Source of the DNA: Candidatus Omnitrophota bacterium
GTDB lineage: Bacteria > Omnitrophota > Gorgyraeia > Zapsychrales > JAKLDJ01
Assembly: GCA_022703585.1 (NCBI GenBank)
Contig: JAKLDJ010000005.1
Coordinates: 69,353-133,352 of the forward strand
DNA length: 64,000 nt
Direction of reading: 5' to 3'
This document shows, piece after piece, positions 21,654 through 57,488 of this stretch (within the stretch, counting starts at the first letter, position 1; each line of letters opens with the position of its first letter). Made by a program: the position numbers and the translations under genes. Below the pieces are notes generated by a model. That model worked only from the letters and a program-made list of their open reading frames with translations, ran no database searches and was not told the DNA's origin.

Positions 21654-21663
21654 AACTGTTCCC

Positions 21664-30344: not shown

Positions 30345-30345
30345 C

Positions 30346-32122: not shown

Positions 32123-32132
32123 CAGAAACTCC

Positions 32133-34578: not shown

Positions 34579-36393
34579 CTATCTCGATATCGGCTTCACA
34601 ATCATATTGCTCATAAATTCATTCTGACTTAATAACGGCTCCATGTCTTCCAGAGGCCGGGCCGCGTACGAGCCGTCCTCTCTTTGACGAAAACCCATGC
34701 GCGGAATCAGTTGCTGATCCTTTGAAATCATAATCTCGCACAAAACCGGCCCTTTGCCTTTAAGCACATGGCAAAGTTTTTTAACCAGCTCACCGTGATT
34801 GCTGATTCGTACCGCTTTGATACCATAGGCCCGAGAAACCTTTTTAAAATCGGGCAGGCTCACTCCCCCCTTTTTTCCAGAGCCCACATAACGGGATGAA
34901 AAAAATCCGTCCTGGGTATGTCGAATGGCTAAATAGCCGTCATTGTTAAAAACAAATATCTTTACCGGAAGCCGGTGATGGGCAATAGTCTGTAACTCAT
35001 GAATATTAAATTGCATACTCCCGTCGCCGACAATACAGATGGTGCGCTTACGGTTATTGGCAAAACAGGCGCCGATACTTTCCGGTAGTCCGGAACCCAT
35101 GGCACCGATCCCTGCCGAGGTAATAATACGCTGACCCTGCTTAATCCGCATGCCTTGAAACGGCATATACAACCCCGTCCCGCCTCCGTCGACACAAATA
35201 ACATCATGAGCTCCCAATTCATCGGATAAGACATCCATAAGGACATAGGGATTAACAAATTTCTTTTGCCTTCCCCACTCGCGAGGCACGGCATTGTATT
35301 TTTTATAGGCTGAGCACTTCCCGGCCCAAAACTTATCGGATTTTTGCAATTTGTTTTTATTTAATCCGGATAAAACTTTATTTAAAAATAATTTGGCATC
35401 CGAGCGAATGGAAAGATCGACGCGCACGGTCCGCTTGGCTATCTCGACCGGATCGATATCCACCATGATTATTTTCGCGTCCCGGGCAAAGGCAGCGTAA
35501 TTGGTGCCGGTCAACGGAATGCTCAAATGCGATCCGATACTTAATAATAAATCACAATTTTGAACCGCCAGATTAGCCCCGCGTTGCCCGGAAATTCCCA
35601 GCCGCCCCATATACAACGGTTCTTCGGTCGGCAAAATATCGCTGGCATTCCAGGTGGAGACAAAGGGAATTTTTGTCTTTTTAATAAACTCTTTAAATTC
35701 CTGCGCCGCTCCCGCTAAGCGCACCCCGTAGCCGGCTAAGACCAGTGGCCGTTTAGATGCCGCGATAAACCGGCGGCATTGTTTTAATTGTTCCTCAGAA
35801 ACAGTTTTTCCGGCGTCCTTTTGTTTAAGCGAAGCAGGATTAAAACTTTTAAGCTTATTCGGCTCAATCATCGCCCACTGGAAATTTAAAGGAATATCGA
35901 CCCAAACCGGCCCGGGCCTCCCGGACTGTGCAATATACAACGCTTTCTGTAGCTCATATTTAATCATCCCCGGATCCTGAATCATCACCGCGTATTTTGT
36001 TAAGGGCTTGACCAGCGAAACAATATCGATCTGCTGGCTGCCTAATTGCCTTATGGGTTTATTGTGCGTGGTGTGTTCTATCCTCGCCTGCCCCGAAATA
36101 AAAATACAGGGAACGGAATCAAGCCAGGCCGCGCACAAGCCCGTAATCGCATTCGTACCTCCGGGCCCCGTGGTCACAAACGCCGCCCCCAACTGGTTAT
36201 TGACCCGGGCATAAGCCTCGGCAGCCAAAGCCGCTGCCTGTTCGTGATGGGTAAAAACCGGCATCGTCTTAGAGTTGCGGTCCGCCGAGTCGAAAAGATG
36301 AACGACCGCGCCTCCGGTCACTCCGAAGATGTGCCCGACACCTTCTTTCGCCAGAAAATCCACCACGTAATCCGAAAGTTTTATTTTAGCCAT
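34579..36393 (-). CDS. Thiamine-diphosphate enzyme, acetolactate-synthase-large-subunit-like (YerE-like?)
   Basis: 604 aa. N-terminal Pyr domain (GVTGGAVVHLFD), central domain, and a C-terminal ThDP motif (GDGSMQFNIHEL...NNDGY). Confidence 0.85.
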   Translation of the reverse strand: MAKIKLSDYVVDFLAKEGVGHIFGVTGGAVVHLFDSADRNSKTMPVFTHHEQAAALAAEAYARVNNQLGAAFVTTGPGGTNAITGLCAAWLDSVPCIFISGQARIEHTTHNKPIRQLGSQQIDIVSLVKPLTKYAVMIQDPGMIKYELQKALYIAQSGRPGPVWVDIPLNFQWAMIEPNKLKSFNPASLKQKDAGKTVSEEQLKQCRRFIAASKRPLVLAGYGVRLAGAAQEFKEFIKKTKIPFVSTWNASDILPTEEPLYMGRLGISGQRGANLAVQNCDLLLSIGSHLSIPLTGTNYAAFARDAKIIMVDIDPVEIAKRTVRVDLSIRSDAKLFLNKVLSGLNKNKLQKSDKFWAGKCSAYKKYNAVPREWGRQKKFVNPYVLMDVLSDELGAHDVICVDGGGTGLYMPFQGMRIKQGQRIITSAGIGAMGSGLPESIGACFANNRKRTICIVGDGSMQFNIHELQTIAHHRLPVKIFVFNNDGYLAIRHTQDGFFSSRYVGSGKKGGVSLPDFKKVSRAYGIKAVRISNHGELVKKLCHVLKGKGPVLCEIMISKDQQLIPRMGFRQREDGSYAARPLEDMEPLLSQNEFMSNMIVKPISR

Positions 36394-36416
36394 ATCTTAA
36401 ATTTATTTTTGTGAAC

Positions 36417-37436
36417 TTATTGCCTCTTTTCCCTCTGCTTGTCAACAAGACTAATAGCAACCTCGACGATCATGTCTTCCTGCCCGCCTACAGCCTTACG
36501 CCGGCCTAATTCAAAAAAGACATCTTTGGCATCAACGCCGTATTGCAGAGAAACCCGTTCTACATGCCGGACAAAACCGGAAAAAACCCCGGCTAAGCCG
36601 CTGACAATGCTGATCGATTTTATTCCCTTGGCGCTTGTAAATAATTCTTTGGCTGCCATATCCGCCAGATCCAGGATTTTATAAAGATCGATTCCCGTCT
36701 TATAACCCATTTTATTTAATATCGCTACGACCGCTTCCATTTGGGTGTTGCCGGCACCGGCGCCAAATCCCAAAATGCAGCAATCTAAAATAGTTGCCCC
36801 GGCCTCAATCGCAGCAACGGAATTCGCAATTGCCAGCCCGAGATTATTGTGGGCATGAAACCCCACCGGTATTTTTAGCGCACCCGCTAAAGCAGCTATC
36901 CTCTCCTTGACATCGGCGGTTATATACGCCCCGGCCGAATCCATGATAATAACGCCGTCCACGTCATACGATTGCATTTTAAGGCACTCGTCGATTAATA
37001 TTTCTTTGGAAACCATGTGGGTCATCATCAAGTTGCCGTAGGCCAGCTTCCCTTTTTCTTTGACATAATTAATATGCCTTTGGGTGGTGTCGGCTTCCGT
37101 GCAATGCGATGACACACAAACCACATCAACACCCTGCTCAATGGCAGGGCCTAAATCTTTATTGATCGTCCCGAATCCGGGAATGATAAAAACTCCTAAT
37201 TTTGAACGGCTCAATTTTCCGCGGGCACACGCGATCATTTCTTGATCCGTCAGCAGGCTTTCGCCGACCTGCAGAGATGAAGCCCCCAGGCCGTTACCGT
37301 GGCCAACCATAACAATCGGGACTCCGGCGGTCTCAGCCGCCGCACAATACGATTCTATCTGGCGTCTATCCAACTGATGGCGGATGGCATGACTGCCGTC
37401 GCGCAACGAAGAATCAATAATGAAGACATCGGTCAT
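36417..37436 (-). CDS. 4-hydroxy-2-oxovalerate aldolase (DmpG/BphI/MhpE family)
   Basis: IIDSSLRDGSHAIRHQ, HGNGLG, SHCTEAD, HAHNNLGLAIANS and VGGQEDMIVEVA closely track DmpG. The start is set at the internal Met so that it overlaps the DmpF-like stop in an ATGA junction. Confidence 0.85.
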   Translation of the reverse strand: MTDVFIIDSSLRDGSHAIRHQLDRRQIESYCAAAETAGVPIVMVGHGNGLGASSLQVGESLLTDQEMIACARGKLSRSKLGVFIIPGFGTINKDLGPAIEQGVDVVCVSSHCTEADTTQRHINYVKEKGKLAYGNLMMTHMVSKEILIDECLKMQSYDVDGVIIMDSAGAYITADVKERIAALAGALKIPVGFHAHNNLGLAIANSVAAIEAGATILDCCILGFGAGAGNTQMEAVVAILNKMGYKTGIDLYKILDLADMAAKELFTSAKGIKSISIVSGLAGVFSGFVRHVERVSLQYGVDAKDVFFELGRRKAVGGQEDMIVEVAISLVDKQREKRQ

Positions 37437-38344
37437 AAGTGTTTTGCCCCTACCAACGCATCCTGCATCCGACAGGCATAGCGCTCTGCCGTTCTCACAG
37501 CAGCACAATTGATAATATCCAGGTTTCCCGCGTAGGCGGGAAGATAATCGCCCAAGCCCCGCACCTTAACCATGATCACGATGCGGTTATTTTCATAAAC
37601 CGGCGGGACAATGACCGAATACCCGGGCACATACGCTTGGATTGCTCTTTCCATCTCAAAAACGGCAGCCCTTAATTTCTCAATATCCGGCTTCGGCATT
37701 TTAGCGGACAAAGTCGTTTGCATATCAATACAAGGATCCGCGGGATTGAGAATCAAAATAACTTTGACATTATCGCATCGGGTAAAAGAACGCAGCCCCT
37801 CCTCGGTATTTTCGATGTATTCGTCGATATTGATCCGAGTCGCCATGCCCGCACTCCGCGAGGCGATAGAGGAAACAACCTCGATATACTCAATATCTTT
37901 ACACGTCCGGGAAAGGACAAAGGCGAGCGGAATCGATGCCTGACCGCCGCAGCTGACCATATTGACATTGCGATTATCGAGGGCATCATCAAGATTGATG
38001 GCCGGAACGATCATCTTGCCTATTTTGGACGGCGTCATGTCGATAACGGTTTTATCGGTTTCTTTTAATAACGCCCAATGCTGCAGGTGGTCCTTGGCCG
38101 AGGTCGCGTCAAACACAATCCGGCAGCAGTCAGGGTTATCAAGAATTTCGTTTATCCCCTTATCCGAGACCGCCACTCCCTTTTCTTTAGCTTTAAGCAT
38201 ACCCTTGGAATGGCAATTTCTCCCCACAAAACGCGTGCACTCCAAAACATCCGAGCGCAATATTTTTATCAGCAAATCCGTACCGATATTGCCGCTGCCT
38301 AAAATTGCGACTTTAATTTTTTCAGGGTACTGCGCCATAAACAA
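37433..38344 (-). CDS. Acetaldehyde dehydrogenase (acetylating), DmpF/MhpF family
   Basis: KVAILGSGNIGTDLLIKILRS and the catalytic-Cys region VSCGGQASIP. It is co-translationally coupled to the DmpG-like gene. Confidence 0.85.
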   Translation of the reverse strand: MFMAQYPEKIKVAILGSGNIGTDLLIKILRSDVLECTRFVGRNCHSKGMLKAKEKGVAVSDKGINEILDNPDCCRIVFDATSAKDHLQHWALLKETDKTVIDMTPSKIGKMIVPAINLDDALDNRNVNMVSCGGQASIPLAFVLSRTCKDIEYIEVVSSIASRSAGMATRINIDEYIENTEEGLRSFTRCDNVKVILILNPADPCIDMQTTLSAKMPKPDIEKLRAAVFEMERAIQAYVPGYSVIVPPVYENNRIVIMVKVRGLGDYLPAYAGNLDIINCAAVRTAERYACRMQDALVGAKHL

Positions 38345-40943: not shown

Positions 40944-40970
40944 CAGACTCGCCCGCTTTGAATTTAAAAT

Positions 40971-41480
40971 TTATAGCCGAAATAGCTTTAGCGTCTCTTT
41001 CATCCAAATCGCATTATCGCGAAAATGCTGCGCCGTCACCAGCGTCCCGTCGACCACCACCGGCTCGTCGATATAACTAGCACCGGCATTGATCAAATCA
41101 TCCTTGCAGCCTTTATAGCAGGTGGCCTTCTTTCCTTTCATAATCCCTGCCGAAACCAACACCCACGGCCCGTGACAAATACTCGCAATAGGCTTTTTAA
41201 GGTCATGCATGGCCTTGGTGAATTTTAAGATCTCAGGAACCTGTCGCACCCGATCCGGCGCTTCGTGCCCGCCGGGAATCACCAATAGATCAAACTGTTT
41301 CGCATCCAGAGCAGAAAAATTAATCGTCGGCTTTGCGGATATTCCGTGTTTACCACTCACCACTCCGTCCGTTGATGTACACACATCCACCGAAAATCCC
41401 GCCTCCTGCAAACGGTAATAGGGATAAAAGAATTCGGTATCTTCAAAGCCGGGCCCGGTAATAATAACCGCTCGATTCAT
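40971..41480 (-). CDS. DJ-1/PfpI family protein
   Basis: 169 aa. The nucleophile-elbow motif ASICHGPWVL is present. Confidence 0.8.
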   Translation of the reverse strand: MNRAVIITGPGFEDTEFFYPYYRLQEAGFSVDVCTSTDGVVSGKHGISAKPTINFSALDAKQFDLLVIPGGHEAPDRVRQVPEILKFTKAMHDLKKPIASICHGPWVLVSAGIMKGKKATCYKGCKDDLINAGASYIDEPVVVDGTLVTAQHFRDNAIWMKETLKLFRL

Positions 41481-41570: not shown

Positions 41571-43514
41571 TCAAACGGGTATACCTATCATTTTCGCAAC
41601 GTCATATATTTCAAAAAACTTTGACCAAAAAGGTGATTCTTTTACAGCTTTTTTATAATGGGCAGCTGCAAATTCATACCTCTCTTCATTGCCGAGCAAC
41701 CGGGCTGCCTTTGCGTTAACACCCCAAGCCACTGCATCCATTAAATAAAATCTAAGAATATGATCCGTGATATTTAAGATTTTCTTAGGTTCTCCAGAGG
41801 GTTGAAGATTAGGATTTCCGATAAGATTAACAAAGACATTAAAATATATCTGAAACTGCTGAATTTCCAACGGGCCAGGATTTTTATCAGGATCCATTTT
41901 TCGGAAATCATAAACTTCTTTGTACCGGTCGTCAAAAGTTAAGCCACGTTCCATTGCCCATTGGCCCGGAGTATATATATTTATTTTGGCGGTTTCATCG
42001 CCATGAACGACACGTTCATCGCCTAAAGATCGAAGCTGTTCAAACATTGCCGTACCCGGAATAGGAAATAAAACCGCACATTGGCAAAAGTCAACCCTTA
42101 AATCTTTGGCATAATCAAAAGTATTAAATAACTCCGCATAGGTCTCATTCGGAAACCCGATCATAAAATTGGCAAATAGCCAAATATGCGGATGGTTCTT
42201 TTTAAATATTTGACAGGCCTCTTCGACTTTGCTCAAAACAATAGGTTTGCACAAAGTTTTCAAGCGTTTCTCATTGGCCGTTTCTACCCCAAACCCGGCC
42301 ACGACACAGCCAGCCTGCGACATAGCCTTAGCCACTTTTTCATCGATCGAAATCGCCAACAAGGCATTTCCGGTGGAGAATGTCAAATCCAAATCAAGCG
42401 AGGCCCAACGGTCAAACAGCTCCAGCGCACGATCATGATAGGCGAGCAAATCATCATCGATAATCTCAACATGCCGAACTTTCTTCTCGTGATAGAGAAA
42501 GGATAACTCATCCATGACATCGTCGACGGACCTGCTCCTGACGCCGTTTCCCATGAGATTGTTCACCTGACAAAAGGCACAGCGCCCGCGACAACCGCGG
42601 TTGGTTAACAGGGTCGCCCACCTTCTGTCGGGAGAAGAGCCGGAGCGCGCCCACAGATTCGGCATGCCGACGTCGTTGTATCCATCCAGATCAATAAGGC
42701 TATATTCTTTTCGAATGTCGGGACATACGGTTCTTTCCCTGCGGTCGTCAAATGAAACAATATCTCCGTTGTGCTTAAATGACAGGTTGGATAGGACAGG
42801 AACAGCTGCTTCGGCCTCCGAAGAACCGCAGTTGACTTTCTCCCAGAAATTCAACAATTTAACAAATTGCGCCTGGCCTTCTTTTTTAATAACGATATCG
42901 CAATGGCCGAATTTCAATAGATTTTCAAAATTAGCAGAACTCTGCGGCCCTCCAGCAATCAAAAGTTTGCCCCGTCCGGATAGATGTCTTAGAAAATGAA
43001 GCGCCTCTGTCTGAGAAGGCTCAAAAAGAATTGAGAAACCATAGAGGTCACAATCATCAGGGATCAATTCCAAAAGCGCGTTAACATCATGCGGTTGATG
43101 CCGGGCTGTTCTTTTTAATGCCTCAAGAGATAGATCGATAATCTCTACGCTCCAATCCGGCAGCAAATGCCGTAAGGCAGACGAAAGCATCATCAGTCCG
43201 TACGGAGGATAGACGCTGTAACGCTTATTCTCAACCGCCCGAGGCTCTGTCTTTTGAGGGTCTAATGTCGGCGGAACTAGCAGGCATACCTTTCGATTAC
43301 GAATGGGAAAATTCGCCAGAAGATCCGAAAGTTTTTGATACTGAACGAGCTGCTCATTGCTTAAGATTCCGGAATCGAAGGAATTTTGAAAGAATACTTC
43401 CCTCAGCTCTTCCGTAGATAAATGATCAACTGACGGATCCGCTTTAAACATTTTTAAAGATCCAATTTCTGCCTTTAAGAACTCGTGCTTATGCTTAACA
43501 AGATCCTTGGTCAT
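41571..43514 (-). CDS. B12-binding-domain radical SAM protein
   Basis: 647 aa. An N-terminal cobalamin-binding-like domain precedes a CxxxCxxC radical-SAM motif (CRGRCAFC). Confidence 0.85.
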   Translation of the reverse strand: MTKDLVKHKHEFLKAEIGSLKMFKADPSVDHLSTEELREVFFQNSFDSGILSNEQLVQYQKLSDLLANFPIRNRKVCLLVPPTLDPQKTEPRAVENKRYSVYPPYGLMMLSSALRHLLPDWSVEIIDLSLEALKRTARHQPHDVNALLELIPDDCDLYGFSILFEPSQTEALHFLRHLSGRGKLLIAGGPQSSANFENLLKFGHCDIVIKKEGQAQFVKLLNFWEKVNCGSSEAEAAVPVLSNLSFKHNGDIVSFDDRRERTVCPDIRKEYSLIDLDGYNDVGMPNLWARSGSSPDRRWATLLTNRGCRGRCAFCQVNNLMGNGVRSRSVDDVMDELSFLYHEKKVRHVEIIDDDLLAYHDRALELFDRWASLDLDLTFSTGNALLAISIDEKVAKAMSQAGCVVAGFGVETANEKRLKTLCKPIVLSKVEEACQIFKKNHPHIWLFANFMIGFPNETYAELFNTFDYAKDLRVDFCQCAVLFPIPGTAMFEQLRSLGDERVVHGDETAKINIYTPGQWAMERGLTFDDRYKEVYDFRKMDPDKNPGPLEIQQFQIYFNVFVNLIGNPNLQPSGEPKKILNITDHILRFYLMDAVAWGVNAKAARLLGNEERYEFAAAHYKKAVKESPFWSKFFEIYDVAKMIGIPV

Positions 43515-44338
43515 CTATCTTTCCTGACAACAATCGCTTCTAAAACACCACTCGTGCGTACGCCGGAAGATTCTTTAATGTCTTCCCGCCCCAGCACATT
43601 GCCCGCCTTAAAGACAACCTTGCCCTGTCCGTCGATAATTCTTCCCTTCAAGATGCACATCATGTCCCAGCGGAACCGGCGCGACAGATCCTTTAGCGAT
43701 TGATGGTTGTTATAACGCATAAATTGAATCCGGCAGCGGCCAAACCTTTTTTGGGTATCAAAGTGAGAGTTCGAGTCGATAAACGAAACGTAGTCGTACT
43801 GCTGCAGGTCAGAATATATGTATTCATCAGTTTCATAGCCGGTCTGTTCGCGCCCGTAATCATCCTTTAAACGCACTAAATCGCGTTTGTTAACCGGCGT
43901 TTCAATCTCGAGAATAAAAGTACCCCGGGAAGATAATGATCGCGTGGAATGAAAGACCCCTTTGCCGAATAATACCCCCTGGGCAGGGCGCCTTTGCATT
44001 TTTTCACCAAGCGTCAGGCATAAGGCATTTCCCGACAGGACGATGATTGATGTCTTTTTGCCTTGGTGACAGTGCATCGAAGTCCGGCACCCTTTTTTGA
44101 TATTTAGGATCCATGCGGAAACAAATTTATTGGCAAAAAGAAGATACTCATAACCCCACGGTTTTCGCACTACCGCCCGGGAAAAATCATGGAGGTCGTT
44201 ACCCTTGGGAGCCACATTTGTCTTGATCTCAGCAAGCGCGCGGCGGTCAAACGTGCAGGGAATCAATTTTTTATTGATCCGAAAAGACAAGGTATTTTTT
44301 AATCGACTCACGCTACTTTTTTCGGCCATTTTAATCAA
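43511..44338 (-). CDS. Cupin-domain protein
   Basis: KPWGYEYLL...SMHCHQGKK...GVFH resembles a cupin_2 metal site. It overlaps the B12-rSAM start by 4 nt. Confidence 0.55.
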   Translation of the reverse strand: MIKMAEKSSVSRLKNTLSFRINKKLIPCTFDRRALAEIKTNVAPKGNDLHDFSRAVVRKPWGYEYLLFANKFVSAWILNIKKGCRTSMHCHQGKKTSIIVLSGNALCLTLGEKMQRRPAQGVLFGKGVFHSTRSLSSRGTFILEIETPVNKRDLVRLKDDYGREQTGYETDEYIYSDLQQYDYVSFIDSNSHFDTQKRFGRCRIQFMRYNNHQSLKDLSRRFRWDMMCILKGRIIDGQGKVVFKAGNVLGREDIKESSGVRTSGVLEAIVVRKDR

Positions 44339-44370: not shown

Positions 44371-45363
44371 TTAAGGTTTATGAATATATTCCAGCGGCTC
44401 TTTTTTAATCCGTTCCCACCTTCCCTCCACCCAATCGATCACATCGCCCAATCCTTCTTCGACAGAAACAGCGGGCTTCCAGCCAAAGGCCTTTCTCGCC
44501 TTAGTCGAATCGATGACATACGCCGCATCCTGGCCCAGTCGTTCGCCTGCCGCTTGGGTTGCCTTTTTAAAATCAACCCCCATCATCTGGCAAATCGTCT
44601 TAACGACATCCTTAACCGCGATGCCGCTCTTTGGCGACAGATGATAGATCTCTCCGTTTTTTCCTTTTTCCATTGCTAGCTTTTCGCCTTTGGAAATATC
44701 ACGAATATGAATATAGGATTTGACCGCCTTGCCGCCGCCGTGAAGATAAATCTTTTTTCCCATCTTAATAGAAATCACGGTACGGGGAATAATTTTAAAA
44801 AGCTGCTGGTGCGCACCGTAAACATTGGTCGAGCGGATTGTGACCAGCGGAAAATTATAATTCTTAACCAACGTAAACAGGAATAGATCGCCGGCCGCCT
44901 TGGACGCGGCATACGGCGTGCTGGGATTGACGGAATAATCTTCCTTGACCACCCCGCGGCAGGTCCCGTAAACTTCAGGGCTTGAGATATGCACATAGCG
45001 GCGCAAATATTTGGCTTTCTTTAAATGATCTCCCAGGCGGGACAGCGCGACGACGTTGGTCATAAACCACTGCTCGGGATGCTCCCAACTGGGCGCGACC
45101 TCGCTTTGCGCGGCAAAATTAACGATATATTCGGGTTTAAAAGAATCGAGCAGTTTTCGGATCCCGTCCATATCTTTATTGAGATCCATTTGATAGAAGT
45201 TGAATCTTCCGGTCTGGCGGCGTTTATACGGCAGAAACAGATCGCTTTTTTCCGGCGAGCGGCTGATGCCGATAATCTCGTTTTCTTTTTCATCGAGTAA
45301 TAGATCGATAAAGTCGCTTCCCGAAAATGAATTGCTGCCGATAACAACAATGCGCTTGGACAT
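44371..45363 (-). CDS. NAD-dependent NDP-sugar 4,6-dehydratase/epimerase (extended SDR)
   Basis: 330 aa. ISSPEVYG, the YAASKAAGD catalytic motif and an RmlB-like C-terminus. The N-terminal Gly motif is degenerate (GSNSFSGS). Confidence 0.7.
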   Translation of the reverse strand: MSKRIVVIGSNSFSGSDFIDLLLDEKENEIIGISRSPEKSDLFLPYKRRQTGRFNFYQMDLNKDMDGIRKLLDSFKPEYIVNFAAQSEVAPSWEHPEQWFMTNVVALSRLGDHLKKAKYLRRYVHISSPEVYGTCRGVVKEDYSVNPSTPYAASKAAGDLFLFTLVKNYNFPLVTIRSTNVYGAHQQLFKIIPRTVISIKMGKKIYLHGGGKAVKSYIHIRDISKGEKLAMEKGKNGEIYHLSPKSGIAVKDVVKTICQMMGVDFKKATQAAGERLGQDAAYVIDSTKARKAFGWKPAVSVEEGLGDVIDWVEGRWERIKKEPLEYIHKP

Positions 45364-45378
45364 TTTTTCCTTTTTAAT

Positions 45379-46455
45379 CTAGAACGGCCCGCGAAACGAT
45401 AGATCCGGAACGTCATGCGGGTTGACTTCGCTTTGCGCTTCTTTTAAAAGCGTTTTAAGCTCATTAGCATCTTTTCCTAAAAGTTCCCAGGCGGCTTGCA
45501 CGATCGCACGGTATCCGGGATAAAAATCCTCCGTTAAAGACGGTGCTGACGGCATGGGAATTTCGGGTAAGGCAATGCGCCGCGGCGCTTTCTTTAAACT
45601 TTTCCACGCCCCTTCGGTCGCACGCGCCGCGATCTCCGCACTTACCCCGAACGACAGCCAACCGCAATCGGCAACGATTAAATGGCCGGTCTTTTTAACC
45701 GATTGGCTGACGGTCTCAAAATCCAGCGGCCGGATACTGCGCAAGTCAATGACCTCGGCCGTGATCCCTTTTTTCTCTAGGATCTGAGCCGCCCGAATCG
45801 CTTCGATCGTCATATGCGAAACGGCAGCAATAGTCACCATATCCCCTTTGCGGACAACACTCGCTTTTCCCAAAGGAATACGATAAGGGTCCTGGTGAAC
45901 ATGGCCTTCGATATCGTAAAGCCAGCGGTGCTCAATGGAGATAACCGGATTATCATCTTCGATAGCGGAGACAAGCAGGCCCTTGGCATCGTGCGGTGTT
46001 GCCGGCATAATCACTTTTAAACCCGGAATATGCGCGAACAATGCCTGCAGGCTTTGGGAATGCTGCGCCCCCTGGCCCCAGCCGCGGCCCACGACCATAC
46101 GGATAACCAAAGGAATATTCATCTGCCCGCCGAACATAAAATGCCATTTGGCGGCATTGTTAATAATCTGGTCCAAGGAAAGCAATGCAAAATCCACCCG
46201 TTGGTGAGTAAGAATCGGCCGAAATCCGCGCAGCGCCGCGCCGATACAAATTCCGGTCATCCCGTTTTCACAAACCGGCATATCCATGACCCGGCCGGAA
46301 CCATATTTTTCTTTTAACCCTAAGGTCGAGCCAAAGATTCCTTTTGGATCGGGCACGCCTTCCCCAATAATAAAGACAGCCGGGTCTTTGGCCATGCATT
46401 GATCAATGGCCTCGCGGAGTGCTTGCGAATATTTTATTTGTCGTTCTACGGTCAT
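45379..46455 (-). CDS. ThDP-dependent dehydrogenase E1 component, beta subunit (transketolase C-terminal-like)
   Basis: 358 aa with typical E1-beta blocks (FIIGEGV, MPVCENGMTGICIGAALRGFRPI, LKVIMPATPHDAKGLL). Confidence 0.85.
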   Translation of the reverse strand: MTVERQIKYSQALREAIDQCMAKDPAVFIIGEGVPDPKGIFGSTLGLKEKYGSGRVMDMPVCENGMTGICIGAALRGFRPILTHQRVDFALLSLDQIINNAAKWHFMFGGQMNIPLVIRMVVGRGWGQGAQHSQSLQALFAHIPGLKVIMPATPHDAKGLLVSAIEDDNPVISIEHRWLYDIEGHVHQDPYRIPLGKASVVRKGDMVTIAAVSHMTIEAIRAAQILEKKGITAEVIDLRSIRPLDFETVSQSVKKTGHLIVADCGWLSFGVSAEIAARATEGAWKSLKKAPRRIALPEIPMPSAPSLTEDFYPGYRAIVQAAWELLGKDANELKTLLKEAQSEVNPHDVPDLSFRGPF

Positions 46456-46461
46456 ATTGAT

Positions 46462-47427
46462 TTATAAGGCATAAACATCGTTTAGAGAAACACCCTTGGC
46501 AAAAGGCGCAGCCTGCGCCAAGGTAACGGCCGTATCAATTTCTTTTTGAATCTGCGTTTCCATCCCGGTGATTTCGGCCGGCTTGATCACCTTGTTTAAA
46601 AGGGCGTATTTCTTAAACCGGTCGATGGGGCATTTCTTTTGCCAGAGTTTAAACTCGGCCTCATCGCGATAACCGATATGATTGTCGTAATTCGGGCCGC
46701 AATGCTCGCGCCAGCGGTAGGTTAAGAATTCGATCAAAGCCGGCCCGCGCCCTGCGCGGACAGCATCGATCATTTCTTTTGATACCTCGTAAACTTTTCC
46801 GCAATCATTCCCGTCGGCTCGAAACGAACGGATCCCGTAGCCTTTGGCCAGAGAGGCAATGGAGCGCTTGGGCTGCCGCTCGGCAATCGGCGTATACACC
46901 GAATAAAGATTATTCTCGCAGACAAAAACAATAGGCAAGTTTTTTAAAACCGCAAAGTTAACCGATTCGTGGAATGCCCCTTCTTCGACGGCCGCGTCTC
47001 CCAAGAAAGCGACCGTCACGGTTTTGTTGTTTTTCATCTTTTCCGCCCAGGCCACACCTGTCGCCACCGGAATCGTTCCTCCGACAATAGGCGTTGAACC
47101 TAAAAAATTTACGGACAGATCGATCAAATGCATCGAACCGCCGCGGCCCCGGGAGCAGCCTGTTTCTTTGCCGTACAATTCGGCAAATAATTTTTCCAGA
47201 TTTCCGCCCTTGGCCAAATAATGCCCGTGCGAACGGTGATTGCTTAAAACCAGGTCTTCATTCTTTAAATTGGCGCTTACCCCCGCCGCGACCGCCTCCT
47301 GGCCGATGCATAAATGCACCGGGCAGCGCATTTGTTGCTGGGGATAGAGCTCAACAATTCGCTCCTCCACCATCCGGATGCGCAACATTTGGTAAAAAAG
47401 AGATTGTAAGATTTTTTTGGTGATCAT
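46462..47427 (-). CDS. ThDP-dependent dehydrogenase E1 component, alpha subunit
   Basis: 321 aa. ThDP motif GDAAVEEGAFHESVNFA...NN. YRWREH is typical of E1-alpha. Confidence 0.85.
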   Translation of the reverse strand: MITKKILQSLFYQMLRIRMVEERIVELYPQQQMRCPVHLCIGQEAVAAGVSANLKNEDLVLSNHRSHGHYLAKGGNLEKLFAELYGKETGCSRGRGGSMHLIDLSVNFLGSTPIVGGTIPVATGVAWAEKMKNNKTVTVAFLGDAAVEEGAFHESVNFAVLKNLPIVFVCENNLYSVYTPIAERQPKRSIASLAKGYGIRSFRADGNDCGKVYEVSKEMIDAVRAGRGPALIEFLTYRWREHCGPNYDNHIGYRDEAEFKLWQKKCPIDRFKKYALLNKVIKPAEITGMETQIQKEIDTAVTLAQAAPFAKGVSLNDVYAL

Positions 47428-48434
47428 TTAAGGTTTAAAGCCTGCATGGTTTTAATGTTGTAATAACGGATATCGTCCATCGGGTTTGGAATGAGGCCTT
47501 TCTCAAATGCCTTCTTTAAGTCACCCACTGCCTGCTCGATCGTGCACCGAGGGCTAAATCCCAGCTCCCGGGAAATTTTCTCCGAAGAAATATGATAGGA
47601 GCGGTTATCGTCCGTGGGCTTGCGCGTGATCTGGATGCTTCCGTTGCCGATCACTTTCTTGACGGTTTCGGCGATCTCGTTGACGGTATAATTTTGGTAA
47701 CCGGCGTTAAAAATTTTCCCCGCGATTTTCTCTTTTGGGTATTCCAGTGATTGCACGTATAGATCGGTCACGTCGTCAATATGAATATTGGGCCGCTTCT
47801 GATCCCCACCAAAGACGGTGATCTTTCCGGCGTTAATGGCGTGATTGGTTAAAATATTAACGGTCAGGTCCAGCCGCAACCGCGGCGAATAGCCGCACAC
47901 CGTCGCCGGCCGTAAAATAAGCACGGTAAAATCATTTGATTGCTGTTCGAGTAAATATTTTTCGCACAAAGCCTTATATTTTGAATAATCGGTGAGCGGC
48001 TCTAAGGCCAGATCTTCGGTAACATTGGATTCTTTTTTAACCCCGTACACGCTGGAGCTGGAGGCAAAAATAAATCTTTTTACCTTTGCCTTTTTGGCAA
48101 TCGTAACCAGCGGCAGGAAGGCGTCGTAATTGATCGACTTGCCTAAATCCGGATTTAATTCATAGCTGGGGTCGTTGGAAATGCAAGCCAGATGAATGAC
48201 CGCGTCAATGCCCTTCATTTCTTTTGTGAGAAGTTTGGTATCGCGGATATCGCCCTTGACCTGCCTGAGATTGGGATTATCTTTTACGCTATCCAAAACG
48301 TGTTCCCCGTACATATAAAGATCGATCACCGTAACCTTGTAATCGCGGGCAAGAAGTTTTGGGATTAAAACAGCGCCGACATACCCGGCGCCTCCGGTGA
48401 CCAAAATATTTTTCATATCGTCAGGTTCTTTCAC
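47424..48434 (-). CDS. NAD-dependent epimerase/dehydratase (extended SDR)
   Basis: ILVTGGAGYVGAV and YSKYK. Confidence 0.8.
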   Translation of the reverse strand: MKEPDDMKNILVTGGAGYVGAVLIPKLLARDYKVTVIDLYMYGEHVLDSVKDNPNLRQVKGDIRDTKLLTKEMKGIDAVIHLACISNDPSYELNPDLGKSINYDAFLPLVTIAKKAKVKRFIFASSSSVYGVKKESNVTEDLALEPLTDYSKYKALCEKYLLEQQSNDFTVLILRPATVCGYSPRLRLDLTVNILTNHAINAGKITVFGGDQKRPNIHIDDVTDLYVQSLEYPKEKIAGKIFNAGYQNYTVNEIAETVKKVIGNGSIQITRKPTDDNRSYHISSEKISRELGFSPRCTIEQAVGDLKKAFEKGLIPNPMDDIRYYNIKTMQALNLK

Positions 48435-49374
48435 GGGATGATGCCTTTTTGTTTAAAAGACGCGCACACTCCCGGGCCACTGTCTTAGGCGAAATATAAT
48501 TCATGCAAAAGCGGTCGAATTTGCAGATCGGGGAATAGCACGGCGCGAAAGGACAATTCAACGTCGAGGCAACAATGTGGATATTGTCAATGCCCGTCAT
48601 GCGCAAATAATTGGTCGGCCCGTAGAGTGAAATGACCTTTTTACCCAGCGCCTGCGCCAGAATCTGGCCCAGCGAATCCGAGGTCACGATCACGCGGCAA
48701 CTTTCGATCCAGTCGATGTATTTGGCGACATTTTTATGCCCCTGCTGCCAGCTAAGCGAATAATCCTTTTTTAAGATCCCCTCAAGCTCTTTCCAGTATT
48801 TCATCGGCCAGGCCTTGGTCGGCCATTTGGGCCCGACCGCAAAATTAAATCCGATATCGTATTTCTCCCGGTTTCCCCTTTTACGCCCCAAAACCGGGCT
48901 CTGGCCTTTCCAACGGCCGCCTAAGGTTTCGAAAAGCAATTCAAAAGCGTTTTTGTGAATATAACGATGATTCTCCTGGCCGGTCAAAAGATATTGGGTG
49001 GAGCGTTTGTAGGTGGCGATGTCATAGATCCGGCTGTTAAAATAAAATCCGTATTTTTTCTTAGCCTTGATCTGCGCCAGATAGGTGCAAATCCCGATAT
49101 CCTTTTCCAGATTAACCAGAATATCGAATGAACGGCGGGTAATCTTCTTTAGGGTCTCGGGCCCGAAGATCAATATTTCGTCGATATAAGGATTGTCCTT
49201 TAACAGCGGACTCCCCTTAAAAGAAGTAATCCAGGTGACGCGGTCATTTTTGTAGAGATGCAAAATCGAAGTGCAGATCAAGACATCGCCAAGGCTGATA
49301 GTGGTCGAGATTTCCCGGTCGAGGAATTCGGAAAAACCTGTTTTTATAACGAGGACTTTCCTGCGGTTGTGCAT
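48421..49374 (-). CDS. Glycosyltransferase family 9 (heptosyltransferase-like)
   Basis: The track ORF starts inside the upstream gene. The internal ATG (MHNRRKVLVIKTGFSEFLD...) at 49374 abuts the rSAM stop. The GT9-typical start 'KVLVIK..G..GD' and a C-terminal GT-B half are present. Confidence 0.7.
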   Translation of the reverse strand: MHNRRKVLVIKTGFSEFLDREISTTISLGDVLICTSILHLYKNDRVTWITSFKGSPLLKDNPYIDEILIFGPETLKKITRRSFDILVNLEKDIGICTYLAQIKAKKKYGFYFNSRIYDIATYKRSTQYLLTGQENHRYIHKNAFELLFETLGGRWKGQSPVLGRKRGNREKYDIGFNFAVGPKWPTKAWPMKYWKELEGILKKDYSLSWQQGHKNVAKYIDWIESCRVIVTSDSLGQILAQALGKKVISLYGPTNYLRMTGIDNIHIVASTLNCPFAPCYSPICKFDRFCMNYISPKTVARECARLLNKKASSRERT

Positions 49375-49375: not shown

Positions 49376-50278
49376 TTATTTCTGCTCCTTGTCGGAGGAA
49401 TCAAGCCGGATATCGACCGACGTATAACCGTATTCCTGCAAGTGATTCGTCTTGATCTTAACATCACAGGGGCTGCAGGTGCCATACGCGGCGCAGCCCC
49501 GATACAGGTGCTCAAGTTTTAAATCGGGATCCAAAAGATTGCCCAAAGCCATTTCTTTTCGATGGGCGTAGAGGTCCGAATGACAGCGGTAAACCGTCGC
49601 ATCAATTCCAACGGGAAGCACCGTATTGCGGCACAGGACGTGAGCGCGGACCACCTTGCCCTCACAGGCATCGGGATAACGGTATTTTAAATAGTCGCGG
49701 CCGTTATATTTTCCTAAAAATTCTTTGGTGCGAAATTCAACCCCTTGTTTTTTGGCGTACTCGCGGATTTCAGCGATCAATTCCGGATAGCCGGGATGAT
49801 CAATATGATAAAGGCCGATACTTAGGATTTGCTGAAATTCTTTGATGCGGTCGATCAATACTTTATAGTCGTTTTGTCCCTTATGAAAACTGACGCGTAT
49901 CGTCGGATACGGGGCGGGGCGTTTGTTCCAATCCAGCGTGCGCAGTTTCTTGAATTTCTCAACAGTTAAACTCGGCGGCAGGGCGGTTAAAATATCCATT
50001 TTGTGGTGAACATTGTCCAGGATCTCCCAAATGCCGTCATAAAGAAACGGCTCTCCTCCCTGGAGGGTCAACGGGATCCCCTGGGGCAATTGAAGGCGAT
50101 TAAGCGCCTCGATCCATTGGCCGGGCTTTAGTTCCGCGGCGCCTTTAATATTAATAAACTTCTCATTATAATTAGTAATACAATAGGGACAGGAAAGAAA
50201 ACAGCGGTTGGTCAGATAAATCCCCAGATAATCTGTGATGGCGGGAACAATGATGGGTTGAAGTTCTGCTTTTAGCAT
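49376..50278 (-). CDS. Radical SAM protein with C-terminal Cys-rich (SPASM/twitch-like) region
   Basis: CFLSCPYC is a CxxxCxxC motif. The C-terminal cysteines are CAAYGTCSPC. 300 aa. Confidence 0.75.
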   Translation of the reverse strand: MLKAELQPIIVPAITDYLGIYLTNRCFLSCPYCITNYNEKFINIKGAAELKPGQWIEALNRLQLPQGIPLTLQGGEPFLYDGIWEILDNVHHKMDILTALPPSLTVEKFKKLRTLDWNKRPAPYPTIRVSFHKGQNDYKVLIDRIKEFQQILSIGLYHIDHPGYPELIAEIREYAKKQGVEFRTKEFLGKYNGRDYLKYRYPDACEGKVVRAHVLCRNTVLPVGIDATVYRCHSDLYAHRKEMALGNLLDPDLKLEHLYRGCAAYGTCSPCDVKIKTNHLQEYGYTSVDIRLDSSDKEQK

Positions 50279-50507
50279 TTAAAAATCACCCGGCAGCTCG
50301 ACTTCTAAAAAGGCTGCATAATTTTGGTACAAATTTTATCCGCCTTCGTCAGAAAACTGCGGCCGTAAGGCCGCAAATAAAACAATTGGCGGATAACCCT
50401 ACGAAACTCAAACACGAAAGTATTTGAGTGAAGTAGGGTTATTGGCTTACGCAGGAAAGTTATTGTACCACAGAGAGTTAAGCGAGGCAATAATTGAAAA
50501 AGCAAGG

Positions 50508-54487: not shown

Positions 54488-54496
54488 AGGTTTCGG

Positions 54497-57038: not shown

Positions 57039-57488
57039 CTACTTTGCATTCTCCAGAATTTCGTTAGCCCGGCCCAAAAGTTCTTTGGCCTTATCCAATA
57101 AATTTCTAGCGCCTTCTTTAGAAAACTCGTTCTCATAATCCGCATTCTCACGCAGGGTTTTTGCCGTCTGTAATGCCTCGATTAAATTAACGTCGAGTAA
57201 ACCCTTGGCAACAAAAAATGCCTTTATCGCCGCAATCAAGCAATAGTGGCTTCTTTCCCGGTATCCCTTCGAATAAATGAGAGCCCGTGCTGCATGAAAC
57301 ATGGCATAATACCCCTGGATCGTCGCCCATTTGAAACTGCCATCGTCAAAGCTATTCTCGGCAGTCTTTAGATCGTCACGGGCGGTTTTTAATTCCTTAG
57401 GTGCCAATTTTACCGCAGCAGCGAATTTCTTGATCTTGCCTTTCGACAAACATTCCTTCAAATCCTGATCTTCTATTCCTTTTCCCAT
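57039..57488 (-). CDS. HEPN-domain protein (putative toxin of a HEPN/MNT type VII TA pair)
   Basis: 149 aa, all-helical. It overlaps the upstream nucleotidyltransferase gene by 16 nt. It has a C-terminal LRENADYE block where the HEPN R-x4-6-H motif sits, with Tyr in the position where His is expected. Confidence 0.65.
   Translation of the reverse strand: MGKGIEDQDLKECLSKGKIKKFAAAVKLAPKELKTARDDLKTAENSFDDGSFKWATIQGYYAMFHAARALIYSKGYRERSHYCLIAAIKAFFVAKGLLDVNLIEALQTAKTLRENADYENEFSKEGARNLLDKAKELLGRANEILENAK

What the first reader, a model, noticed from the sequence alone, without database searches (positions are those of the whole stretch)
44371..48434. E1 alpha/beta ThDP pair sandwiched between two NDP-sugar SDR enzymes
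The order is SDR epimerase, E1-alpha, E1-beta, NDP-sugar 4,6-dehydratase-like. The SDR/E1-alpha overlap is 4 nt. No E2 or E3 (lipoamide) genes are nearby. An E1 without E2/E3 cannot act as a dehydrogenase complex. It is, however, sufficient to generate hydroxyethyl-ThDP and transfer it to an electrophile such as a 4-keto sugar. The 330-aa dehydratase-like protein has a degenerate nucleotide-binding Gly motif (GSNSFSGS). That is unusual and may indicate a modified cofactor mode.
Basis: inference. Interest (0 to 1): 0.65.

Follow-up and report, generated by a model that had tools for sequence, protein, structure and literature searches.

The report
E2-free thiamine enzyme in sugar operon
A pyruvate-dehydrogenase-like E1 alpha/beta pair with no E2/E3 partners sits between two sugar-nucleotide oxidoreductases in an Omnitrophota cell-surface glycan operon, and most likely adds a two-carbon branch to a keto sugar, a chemistry known from antibiotic pathways but here tied to heptose-type sugars in many uncultured bacteria and archaea.

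Summary
On the minus strand lie SDR-A (47424-48434), E1-alpha (46462-47427), E1-beta (45379-46455) and SDR-B (44371-45363). SDR-A and E1-alpha overlap by 4 nt (ATGA). SDR-B carries GSNSFSG. The 64-kb window holds no E2, E3 or lipoyl gene.

The E1 belongs to a distinct clade. In 33 related loci (E1-alpha at least 47% identical) none has E2/E3, while 23 have an HldE-like gene and 21 each have SDR-A and SDR-B. In 51 more distant loci, 21 have E2 directly downstream. The clade's E1-beta carries a roughly 30-residue C-terminal tail ending FxGPF, absent from E2-linked and crystallised E1-beta.

SDR-A's closest solved relative is a heptose C4-dehydrogenase. SDR-B is RmlB/EvdS6-like. GSNSFSG is an invariant family signature (120/120), not decay. 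A YerE-like enzyme with an ErwI/ErwJ-like pair lies in the same operon.

Best reading: an E2-independent acyl-branching (or chain-extending) ThDP enzyme acting on a keto derivative of a heptose-type nucleotide sugar. The principle is already known (AviB1/B2, Pau11/12, EvdU5/S3, KbDH). The heptose and cell-envelope context, the phylogenetic breadth and the tail are new. No biochemistry was possible.

The parts
49376..50278 (-). Radical SAM protein (300 aa), first gene of the operon
   Evidence: PF04055 at 1.4e-08. Gene call in L001. Homologs sit beside E1 or GT9 in L012 and L057. A terminator-like hairpin (50376-50357) and a promoter-like site (50490-50462) lie just upstream.
48421..49374 (-). 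GT9-family (heptosyltransferase-family) glycosyltransferase, 317 aa as called in the public record
   Evidence: PF01075 at 6.9e-13, above the gathering score. Gene call. 40%-identical homologs lie beside E1 in L010 and L012.
47424..48434 (-). SDR-A: NAD-type extended SDR, closest to a heptose C4-dehydrogenase structure
   Evidence: PF01370 at 4.4e-40. Best PDB hit is 6vo6/6vo8 at 5.1e-46, with the next at 2e-27; identity is 37%. GGAGYVG, an Asp after beta-2 and YxxxK are conserved. It overlaps the E1-alpha start by 4 nt.
46462..47427 (-). E1-alpha (ThDP/Mg-binding subunit), E2-independent clade
   Evidence: PF00676 at 1.4e-69. TIGR03182 scores 314.9, below its cut-off of 393.85. GDA...ENNLY is aligned to human PDHA1 GDG...ENNRY. 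Clade signatures are RCPxHL in 120/120 and YRx(R/L)EHCG in 118/120.
45379..46455 (-). E1-beta (pyrimidine-binding and C-terminal domains) with a clade-specific C-terminal tail
   Evidence: PF02779 and PF02780. The Glu and His of 'CENG' and 'AQHSQ' are aligned to human PDHB.
45382..45483 (-). Coding region of the E1-beta C-terminal extension (about residues 325-358, ...HDVPDLSFRGPF-COOH)
   Evidence: It is not aligned to any solved E1-beta. The tail is present in 23/25 heptose-clade loci, 2/2 Streptomyces loci and 0/19 E2-linked loci.
44371..45363 (-). SDR-B: RmlB/EvdS6-like extended SDR with GSNSFSG, G-I-S-R-S and S-S-P-E-V-Y-G signatures
   Evidence: TIGR01181 scores 202.5, below its cut-off of 365.1. 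PDB hits are 2hun, 6bi4 and 8shh. All three signatures are found in 120/120 homologs. Alignment to E. coli RfbB, Gmd and Fcl is. The AF2 model has pLDDT 88.9 and its top folds are RmlB.
43511..44338 (-). 275-aa protein with no family hit (possible cupin by eye)
   Evidence: No Pfam or NCBIfam hit. It is co-transcribed by position. The cupin reading is my inference from the HCHQGKKTSIIVLSG stretch only.
41571..43514 (-). B12-binding radical SAM enzyme (probable C-methyltransferase type)
   Evidence: PF04055 plus PF02310. B12-rSAM genes recur in related cassettes.
34579..38344 (-). Second ThDP branching module: YerE-like enzyme (34579-36393), 4-hydroxy-2-oxovalerate aldolase (36417-37508) and acetylating acetaldehyde dehydrogenase (37433-38344)
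   Evidence: Best PDB hit is 8rph (JanthE, a YerE-like enzyme) at 4.4e-136, against 8.7e-86 for the next entry, annotated as an acetolactate synthase II large subunit (8rph is identified in PMC12188165). NF006049 scores 414.8 and TIGR03215 scores 369.1, both above their cut-offs. The ErwE/ErwI/ErwJ precedent is in PMC9306805.
28125..32206 (-). Likely export and transfer part: polyprenyl-phosphate-type GT2 (31406-32206), two small membrane proteins, and a YfhO-like membrane protein (28125-30344)
   Evidence: PF00535 and a partial PF09586 hit. Weak ArnC/PpgS-like NCBIfam hits. The functional assignment is inference.

Best explanation
E1-alpha/beta forms a ThDP enzyme that never docks on an E2 core. 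It decarboxylates pyruvate to hydroxyethylidene-ThDP. It then adds this C2 unit to a carbonyl carbon of a nucleotide-activated heptose-type sugar, giving a C-acetyl (alpha-hydroxyketone) sugar.

The carbonyl is made by one of the two flanking extended SDRs. SDR-A would act as a Cj1427-like C4-dehydrogenase. SDR-B would act as an RmlB/EvdS6/GMD-like enzyme that forms a 4-keto sugar. The other SDR, together with the downstream reductases, methyltransferases and B12-radical-SAM enzyme, then tailors the product.

The finished sugar is handed to the adjacent GT9 transferase and/or to the GT2 and YfhO-like membrane system for a cell-surface glycan.

What is shown:
- gene content and catalytic motifs;
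- absence of E2/E3;
- clade separation;
- conserved neighbourhood.

What is inferred:
- the donor (pyruvate);
- the acceptor and the carbon attacked;
- which SDR makes the ketone;
- the identity of the nucleotide sugar;
- the role of the beta tail.
For: (1) ThDP/Mg motif, cofactor-activating Glu and active-site His residues are retained.

(2) E2/E3 are absent from the window.

(3) Among 33 loci with E1-alpha at least 47% identical, none has E2/E3, while 23 have HldE-like, 13 SIS/GmhA-like, 21 SDR-A and 21 SDR-B. Among 51 more distant loci, 21 have E2 and 9 have E3.

(4) In an NJ tree all E2-linked sequences form a separate clade. The window falls in the heptose-context clade, whose sister is a Streptomyces pair.

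(5) Active-site loops differ systematically from E2-linked E1 (RCPxHL, GDAxxEEG, YRWREHCGP), and E1-beta has the FxGPF tail.

(6) SDR-A's closest solved relative is 6vo6. Cj1427 makes GDP-4-keto-heptose (PMC10680097).

(7) SDR-B's solved relatives are RmlB enzymes and EvdS6. EvdS6 supplies the 4-keto sugar proposed as substrate of the PDH-like EvdU5/EvdS3.

(8) Related cassettes carry enzymes that act on NDP-keto sugars: Methyltransf_13/14 C-methyltransferases and DegT aminotransferases. They also carry GmhB-like phosphatases.

(9) Published precedent for E1-type C2 branching of keto sugars: AviB1/B2 and Pau11/12 (PMC4753412); KbDH-alpha/beta in vitro, the aldgamycin knockouts and about 120 BGCs (PMC12247030).

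(10) A YerE-like enzyme with an ErwI/J-like pair in the same operon marks it as an acyl-branched-sugar pathway.
Against: - No enzyme assay and no glycan structure exist for any member of this clade.
- The window itself has no HldE-, GmhA- or GmhB-like gene and no nucleotidyltransferase, so the sugar substrate here is inferred from relatives and from GT9.
- The HldE-like and GmhA-like genes of relatives score far below NCBIfam cut-offs, and the HldE-like protein has its two domains in swapped order. The sugar might therefore not be a heptose.
- Having two SDRs that each resemble 4-keto-forming enzymes is not explained.
- The His implicated in acetyl transfer to lipoamide is retained (PMC2663715), so loss of E2 chemistry is not visible in that residue.
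- The rest of the genome could not be searched for E2/E3.
- The tree is a simple NJ tree without support values.
Confidence: 0.6

Rival explanations
1. This is a conventional E1 of a pyruvate or acetoin dehydrogenase complex whose E2 and E3 are encoded elsewhere in the genome. Its position among sugar genes is incidental.
For: E1-beta passes the NCBIfam subfamily model NF006667 (325 against a cut-off of 321). Catalytic residues, including the His linked to lipoyl acetylation, are conserved. The whole genome could not be checked.
Against: None of 33 close relatives has E2/E3 nearby, whereas 21 of 51 distant ones do. The clade is separate in the tree. E1-alpha falls below both PDH equivalog cut-offs. 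The C-terminal tail is never seen in E2-linked E1-beta. There is a 4-nt translational overlap with an SDR and the sugar-gene neighbourhood is conserved across phyla.
Confidence: 0.05
2. The chemistry is the same carboligation, but the acceptor is an aldehyde rather than a ring ketone. One example would be C7 of the heptose after oxidation by the Zn-dependent alcohol dehydrogenase. The result would be linear chain extension to a nine-carbon sugar instead of a branch.
For: ThDP enzymes generally accept aldehydes as acceptors; benzaldehyde is used for ErwE and MyGE in PMC9306805. A Zn-ADH recurs in 10 of 33 cassettes. A heptose has a free exocyclic CH2OH.
Against: The invariant partners are the two extended SDRs. 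Their solved relatives oxidise ring C4. All characterised E1-type sugar enzymes branch at C3 or C4 ketones (PMC12247030). Zn-ADH is less constant than SDR-A and SDR-B.
Confidence: 0.15
3. The E1 works in the cleavage or decarboxylase direction. It would remove a C2 unit from an alpha-hydroxyketone sugar (acetoin-cleaving type), or decarboxylate a sugar-derived 2-oxo acid. That would shorten or remodel the carbon chain rather than add pyruvate-derived carbon.
For: ThDP acyloin chemistry is reversible. The acetoin:DCPIP oxidoreductase belongs to the same superfamily (PMC12247030). Some cassettes include CMP-ulosonic-acid-type cytidylyltransferases and NDP-sugar 6-dehydrogenases.
Against: Those extra genes are sporadic. 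The closest family models are pyruvate-specific E1. Known sugar-pathway members use pyruvate as donor. Co-occurring split transketolases and YerE-like enzymes point to C-C bond formation.
Confidence: 0.12
4. The E1 makes a small free molecule for the pathway rather than modifying the sugar directly. Examples would be acetaldehyde, acetoin, or a 2-oxo-acid-derived precursor for the neighbouring YerE-like enzyme.
For: In this window the operon also holds an aldolase/acetaldehyde dehydrogenase pair and a YerE-like enzyme that need C2/C3 building blocks.
Against: Most related cassettes have E1 with SDR-A and SDR-B but no YerE-like enzyme (5 of 33) and no aldolase pair. The tight SDR-E1 coupling is the conserved feature.
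Confidence: 0.06

Closest known systems
alpha-KADH2-type sugar-branching ThDP enzymes of actinomycete antibiotic pathways (AviB1/AviB2, Pau11/Pau12, EvdU5/EvdS3, aldgamycin and kosinostatin enzymes, KbDH-alpha/beta)
   Same: A two-subunit PDH-E1-like enzyme without E2/E3. It sits in a nucleotide-sugar pathway beside an RmlB/EvdS6-like SDR that makes a keto sugar. The proposed or shown role is transfer of a pyruvate-derived C2 unit to the ketone. Streptomyces E1 pairs are the nearest outgroup in the tree and share the FxGP[FY] beta tail.
   Different: Those enzymes act on dTDP/UDP 6-deoxyhexose or pentose intermediates of secondary metabolites in Gram-positive producers. This clade is linked to HldE/GmhA/GmhB-like genes, a Cj1427-like SDR and GT9. 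It lies in cell-envelope glycan loci and occurs in many phyla of bacteria and in archaea. No sequence of a characterised member was available for direct comparison.
YerE / ErwE / JanthE (single-chain, acetolactate-synthase-like ThDP sugar-branching enzymes of Gram-negative LPS)
   Same: Same overall reaction logic, with a ThDP-bound acyl anion added to an NDP-4-keto sugar, and the same biological setting of surface polysaccharide. A YerE-like enzyme with an ErwI/ErwJ-like pair sits in the same operon.
   Different: A different protein superfamily (decarboxylase type, one chain, FAD-binding fold) rather than E1-alpha/beta. The literature contrasts YerE in Gram-negatives with E1-type enzymes in Gram-positives (PMC4753412). 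Here both types are in one operon.
Pyruvate / acetoin / branched-chain 2-oxoacid dehydrogenase E1 (alpha2beta2)
   Same: Fold, ThDP-Mg motif, activating Glu and active-site His residues. The best solved matches are human PDH E1 (alpha 8e-47, beta 2e-73).
   Different: No E2/E3. The active-site loops differ. There is a 30-residue beta C-terminal tail. The E1-alpha score is below the equivalog cut-offs.
Campylobacter jejuni capsular heptose-modification enzymes (Cj1427 C4-dehydrogenase and partners)
   Same: SDR-A is 37% identical to the 6vo6 structure. The pathway logic of oxidising C4 of an NDP-heptose and then tailoring the sugar is the same.
   Different: The C. jejuni pathway uses GDP-alpha-heptose and only epimerases and reductases, with no ThDP step. 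That 6vo6 is Cj1427 rests on my memory. Relatives here have HldE-like (ADP-heptose-type) activation genes.

Membership tests
E1-type (alpha-KADH2) sugar C-branching ThDP enzymes | Separate E1-alpha (ThDP/Mg motif) and E1-beta subunits with intact catalytic residues | tested here: met
   Pfam and NCBIfam hits. GDA...ENNLY, Glu in CENG and His in AQHSQ and REHCG are aligned to human PDH E1.
E1-type (alpha-KADH2) sugar C-branching ThDP enzymes | No cognate E2/E3 (lipoamide) components | tested here: met
   None in the 64-kb window, and 0/33 in close relatives. The rest of the genome could not be searched.
E1-type (alpha-KADH2) sugar C-branching ThDP enzymes | Embedded in a nucleotide-sugar pathway with an enzyme that generates a keto sugar | tested here: met
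   Flanked by SDR-A (6vo6-like) and SDR-B (RmlB/EvdS6-like). GT9, GT2, methyltransferases and a YerE-like enzyme are in the operon.
E1-type (alpha-KADH2) sugar C-branching ThDP enzymes | Sequence clustering with experimentally characterised members (AviB1/2, KbDH-alpha/beta, AlmDI/DII) | tested here: inconclusive
   No characterised sequence was available. The nearest outgroup is two Streptomyces pairs sharing the beta tail, with polyketide-type neighbours (ABM, DrrA-like ABC, LCM methyltransferase) but no sugar gene within 10 kb.
E1-type (alpha-KADH2) sugar C-branching ThDP enzymes | Pyruvate-dependent C-C bond formation on a keto sugar | not testable with these tools
   Needs an enzyme assay.
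2-oxoacid dehydrogenase complex E1 (PDH / acetoin DH) | Adjacent or cognate E2 with lipoyl and subunit-binding domains, plus E3 | tested here: not met
   Absent from the window and from 33 close loci. Present in 21/51 distant loci found with the same queries.
2-oxoacid dehydrogenase complex E1 (PDH / acetoin DH) | Reaches curated equivalog score for PDH E1 subunits | tested here: not met
   E1-alpha scores 314.9 against 393.85 (TIGR03182) and 214.5 against 411.35 (TIGR03181). E1-beta scores 310.9 against 454 (NF008854). Only the broad subfamily model NF006667 is passed, 325 against 321.
dTDP-glucose 4,6-dehydratase (RmlB) - for SDR-B | Curated score, and the Thr-Asp-Glu acid/base motif with NAD-type Asp after beta-2 | tested here: not met
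   TIGR01181 scores 202.5 against a cut-off of 365.1. S-S-P-E replaces S-T-D-E, and I-S-R replaces V-D-K of E. coli RfbB. Both changes are invariant in 120 homologs. YxxxK is retained. E. coli Gmd also lacks the Asp (T-S-E), so dehydratase chemistry is not excluded.
Cj1427-type NDP-heptose C4-dehydrogenase - for SDR-A | Close sequence relationship, NAD-type Rossmann motif, Ser/Tyr/Lys triad | tested here: inconclusive
   Best solved hit is 6vo6 at 5.1e-46 and 37% identity, well ahead of the next at 2e-27. GGAGYVG, Asp after beta-2 and YxxxK are present. The identity is too low to assign substrate or regiochemistry. That 6vo6 is Cj1427 is from memory.
ADP-heptose pathway context (GmhA, HldE, GmhB, GT9) | Presence of the activation genes near the module | tested here: inconclusive
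   In the window only GT9 is present. In relatives HldE-like is found in 23/33 and SIS in 13/33, and GmhB-like HAD in L089 and L091. All score below NCBIfam cut-offs, and HldE-like has swapped domain order.

The most novel reading that the evidence does not exclude
This module is one instance of a large, undescribed family of cassettes. These cassettes build C-branched or chain-extended, heavily methylated heptose-derived sugars for the cell surfaces of archaea, candidate-phyla bacteria, Chloroflexota, Cyanobacteria, Planctomycetota, Verrucomicrobiota and Omnitrophota. They mix and match three classes of ThDP enzyme (E1-alpha/beta, split transketolase, YerE-like) around two invariant SDRs. In this family the FxGPF tail of E1-beta replaces E2 docking and helps form the acceptor site.
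Probability: 0.4. Interest if true: 0.7.

Novelty: new variant of a known kind. Interest (0 to 1): 0.55.

Why it matters
ThDP-dependent branching of sugars by E1-like enzymes has so far been tied to actinomycete antibiotics. The YerE type has been seen as the Gram-negative LPS solution.

If this clade does the same chemistry on heptose-type nucleotide sugars, three things follow:
- Unusual higher-carbon sugars should be common on the surfaces of many uncultured bacteria and archaea.
- The signatures found here give a simple way to stop mis-annotating these genes as 'pyruvate dehydrogenase E1' and 'GDP-mannose 4,6-dehydratase'. The signatures are RCPxHL and YRWREHCG in alpha, the FxGPF-COOH tail in beta, and GSNSFSG with SPEVYG in SDR-B.
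- New carboligases for making tertiary alcohols would become available.

It also affects metabolic reconstruction. An E1 gene of this clade should not be counted as evidence for a pyruvate dehydrogenase complex in small-genome lineages.

Tried and rejected
- I tried to predict an alpha-linker-beta chimera to see where the beta tail docks. A single-chain model would not answer the question, so it was not run.
- I could not read Krug et al. 2024 or the two Cj1427 papers, which are not held. Whether this clade is among the roughly 120 published alpha-KADH2 clusters is therefore unknown. That 6vo6 is Cj1427 rests on my memory and on the entry's molecule name.
- Pfam scans of ORFs around the Streptomyces relatives L035 and L051 gave only polyketide-type hints and no sugar genes. 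High-GC ORF calling was unreliable, so the link to known antibiotic clusters stays tentative.
- I first read Asp-to-Pro in SDR-B as excluding dehydratase activity. I dropped that after aligning E. coli Gmd, which has T-S-E without the Asp.
- Three literature searches for a heptose-linked E1 module found nothing relevant.
- Terminator-like sites inside the operon are no more frequent than in shuffled sequence (19 against 14.8 +/- 3.9). They were not interpreted.

Full report
**1. What is in the sequence**

Almost every gene in the window is on the minus strand. The finding's interval holds four genes read 48434 to 44371:
- SDR-A, 336 aa from GTG 48434, or 330 aa from ATG 48416;
- E1-alpha, 321 aa;
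- E1-beta, 358 aa;
- SDR-B, 330 aa.

Pfam and NCBIfam confirm the families. The SDR-A stop and the E1-alpha start share ATGA. E1-alpha to E1-beta and E1-beta to SDR-B are 6 and 15 nt apart. SDR-B begins MSKRIVVIGSNSFSGS.

The window is from a Candidatus Omnitrophota MAG (GCA_035390605.1).

**2. No E2/E3**

Pfam scans of most window ORFs gave no lipoyl, 2-oxoacid_dh or pyridine-nucleotide-disulfide oxidoreductase domain. Motif searches in the ORFs outside the four finding genes and their six immediate neighbours found no lipoyl, E2 or E3 signature. tblastn with E. coli AceF and Lpd found nothing. The same queries detected E2/E3 next to other E1 genes, so the negative result is meaningful for the window. 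The rest of the genome could not be searched.

**3. The operon**

A strong terminator-like hairpin follows moaC (50376-50357). A promoter-like site precedes the radical-SAM gene at 50278.

From there the genes run head to tail in this order:
- radical SAM, GT9, SDR-A, E1-alpha, E1-beta, SDR-B;
- a 275-aa protein with no family hit;
- B12-radical SAM, PfpI, Ldh_2, a classical SDR, a methyltransferase;
- acetylating acetaldehyde dehydrogenase, 4-hydroxy-2-oxovalerate aldolase, an acetolactate-synthase-like ThDP enzyme;
- two methyltransferases, Zn-ADH, GT2, two small membrane proteins;
- YfhO-like and other large membrane proteins.

The acetolactate-synthase-like protein matches PDB 8rph at 4.4e-136, against 8.7e-86 for the next entry, annotated as an acetolactate synthase II large subunit. 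8rph is JanthE, a YerE-like sugar-branching-type enzyme (PMC12188165).

A YerE-like enzyme next to a BphI/BphJ-like aldolase and dehydrogenase pair is exactly the ErwE/ErwI/ErwJ arrangement. That arrangement is described for erwiniose, where 4-hydroxy-2-oxopentanoate is the ThDP donor (PMC9306805). The operon is therefore an acyl-branched-sugar pathway on independent grounds.

**4. The E1 is a separate, E2-independent clade**

The 120 best database relatives of E1-alpha are 56-87% identical. They come from Chloroflexota, Omnitrophota, Nanoarchaeota, other archaea and others.

Gene neighbourhoods of four of them show SDR, E1-alpha, E1-beta and SDR together. Alongside sit an HldE-like kinase/nucleotidyltransferase, a SIS isomerase, methyltransferases, Zn-ADH and B12-radical SAM.

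A scan of one genome per species returned 80 loci. I called their ORFs and compared them with a reference set that included E. coli E2 and E3.

| Neighbour | 33 loci, E1-alpha >= 47% identical | 51 more distant loci |
|---|---|---|
| E2 | 0 | 21 |
| E3 | 0 | 9 |
| HldE-like | 23 | 3 |
| SIS | 13 | 3 |
| SDR-A | 21 | 7 |
| SDR-B | 21 | 4 |

A neighbour-joining tree puts all E2-linked sequences in one clade and the window in a clade of heptose-context loci. Two Streptomyces loci are the nearest outgroup. The tree has no support values.

The clade differs from E2-linked E1 in its active-site loops:
- RCPxHL in place of PGxxHLY;
- TGC in place of TGYC;
- GDAxxEEG in place of GDGAxNxG;
- YRWREHCGP in place of YRxRGHxxxD.

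E1-beta carries about 30 extra C-terminal residues ending LDVPDxSFxGPF. The tail occurs in 23/25 heptose-clade loci, 2/2 Streptomyces loci, 5/26 other E2-less loci and 0/19 E2-linked loci. It has no counterpart in solved E1-beta structures.

Core catalytic residues are retained. One of them is the His that in the Geobacillus enzyme assists acetyl transfer to lipoamide (PMC2663715).

**5. The two SDRs**

*SDR-A.* It has a normal NAD-type motif (GGAGYVG, Asp after beta-2) and YxxxK. Its best solved relative by a wide margin is 6vo6/6vo8 (5.1e-46, 37% identity). I recall that entry as Cj1427. [quoted passage not shown]

*SDR-B.* It is most like RmlB (2hun, 6bi4), and its third-best match is EvdS6. 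An AlphaFold model (pLDDT 88.9, pTM 0.90) has a regular beta1-loop-helix-beta2 at the GSNSFSG site. Its nearest folds are RmlB and EvdS6.

- GSNSFSG, G[ILVM]SRS and S[ST]PEVYG are present in 120/120 homologs of 69-89% identity. The motif is therefore a selected signature, not decay.
- Aligned to E. coli enzymes, G-I-S-R-S matches the NADP-binding G-I-K-R-R of Gmd rather than N-V-D-K-L of RfbB.
- S-S-P-E lies where RfbB has S-T-D-E and Gmd has S-T-S-E.
- SDR-B therefore probably binds NADP(H).
- It could still be a 4-keto-forming enzyme of dehydratase or decarboxylase type, or it could be a reductase. This cannot be settled here.

EvdS6 is instructive. It releases UDP-4-keto-xylose, the proposed substrate of the PDH-like heterodimer EvdU5/EvdS3 in eurekanate biosynthesis (PMC10338323).

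**6. Which sugar**

Three lines point to a heptose-type nucleotide sugar:
- SDR-A's relative is a heptose enzyme;
- GT9 (the heptosyltransferase family) is the gene immediately upstream, and GT9 recurs in L010 and L012;
- relatives carry GmhA-like, HldE-like and GmhB-like genes.

Three cautions apply:
- these genes score below NCBIfam cut-offs;
- the HldE-like protein has its adenylyltransferase domain first;
- the window itself has none of them.

One possible reason, which is inference, is that a diderm with LPS already makes ADP-heptose elsewhere. Lineages without LPS would carry the activation genes inside the cassette.

**7. Other ThDP enzymes in the cassette family**

A split transketolase accompanies E1 in L005, L011, L013 and L090, and replaces it in L091. 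YerE-like enzymes occur in 5/33 loci. Methyltransf_13/14 C-methyltransferases and DegT aminotransferases also occur. Both enzyme families use NDP-keto sugars.

**8. Comparison with what is known**

E1-like two-subunit enzymes that attach a pyruvate-derived acetyl branch to NDP-keto sugars are established in the literature:
- AviB1/AviB2 and Pau11/Pau12 (PMC4753412);
- the aldgamycin enzyme, by feeding and knockout;
- KbDH-alpha/beta in vitro, and about 120 clusters found bioinformatically (PMC12247030).

The differences here are:
- the heptose-type and cell-envelope context;
- the Cj1427-like partner;
- co-occurrence with a YerE-like system in one operon, whereas the literature contrasts the two;
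- the very wide distribution, including archaea;
- the beta-subunit tail.

I found no paper describing a heptose-linked E1 module.

**9. Verdict**

The most likely function is an E2-independent C2 carboligase acting on a keto derivative of a heptose-type nucleotide sugar (confidence 0.6). The regiochemistry, the roles of the two SDRs and the final product are unresolved. I rate it a new variant of a known kind, of moderate interest.

Noticed in passing
window 34579-38344 (-): A second ThDP sugar-branching module lies in the same operon. It comprises a YerE/JanthE-like enzyme, a 4-hydroxy-2-oxovalerate aldolase and an acetylating acetaldehyde dehydrogenase, matching the ErwE/ErwI/ErwJ set proposed for erwiniose.
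   Followed up: partly
window 45382-45483 (-); L005-L032, L035, L051: E1-beta of E2-less clades ends in a conserved roughly 30-residue extension, ...LDVPDxSFxGP[FY]-COOH. It is present in 23/25 heptose-clade and 2/2 Streptomyces loci and in 0/19 E2-linked loci. Its role is unknown.
   Followed up: partly
L005 12647-14374, L090 12052-13781, L091 11668-13406, also L011 and L013: A split transketolase (Transketolase_N plus Transket_pyr/Transketolase_C) accompanies the E1 pair in related cassettes. In L091 it stands in its place beside SDR-A and SDR-B.
   Followed up: no
L004 5411-6940 and homologs in 23 loci: The HldE-like protein has the nucleotidyltransferase domain at the N-terminus and the PfkB kinase domain at the C-terminus. 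This is the reverse of the order in the HldE family model. It scores far below the HldE cut-off (158 against 521).
   Followed up: no
L006, L013, L014, L019, L020, L032 (SDR-B orthologs): In the more divergent SDR-B orthologs the Lys of YxxxK is Arg (PYAASR / PYAVSR / PYAISR), while GSNSFSG and TPEVYG are kept.
   Followed up: no
P0001-P0120 (E1-alpha homologs): In 22 of 120 close E1-alpha homologs the Mg-binding Asp of the GDG motif is Glu (GEA/GEG..EEG).
   Followed up: no
window 18196-32206 (-): There is a run of large multi-pass membrane proteins (907, 595, 713 and 739 aa; two have a C-terminal YfhO-like match). With them are two GT2 genes, a FemAB/GNAT-like protein, a methyltransferase and a TPR protein. 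This looks like a polyprenyl-phosphate-sugar, periplasmic-side glycosylation system.
   Followed up: no
window 39882-41480 (-): An Ldh_2-family 2-hydroxyacid dehydrogenase and a PfpI/DJ-1 protein lie inside the sugar operon. They are not seen in the related cassettes. One speculation is recycling of a 2-oxoacid oxidant for a Cj1427-type SDR.
   Followed up: no
window 50357-50490 (-): A GC-rich hairpin with a T-run (50376-50357) lies after moaC, and a promoter-like site with an extended -10 TG lies at 50490-50462. Together they mark the probable start of the sugar operon.
   Followed up: partly
window 53489-55981 (-): An MBOAT-family membrane O-acyltransferase is followed by a 332-aa secreted protein with no family hit. 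The arrangement resembles polysaccharide O-acylation pairs.
   Followed up: no
window 57039-58009 and 60136-63878 (-): A small gene pair lies at 57039-58009, one member annotated HEPN in the public record. Next to it are a large DPPY-motif DNA methyltransferase and a further large protein that was not scanned for families. This is a possible defence island beside the glycan locus.
   Followed up: no
window 9433-10434 (+): This is the only long plus-strand ORF in the window. It has no family hit and an odd composition, and is probably not a gene.
   Followed up: no
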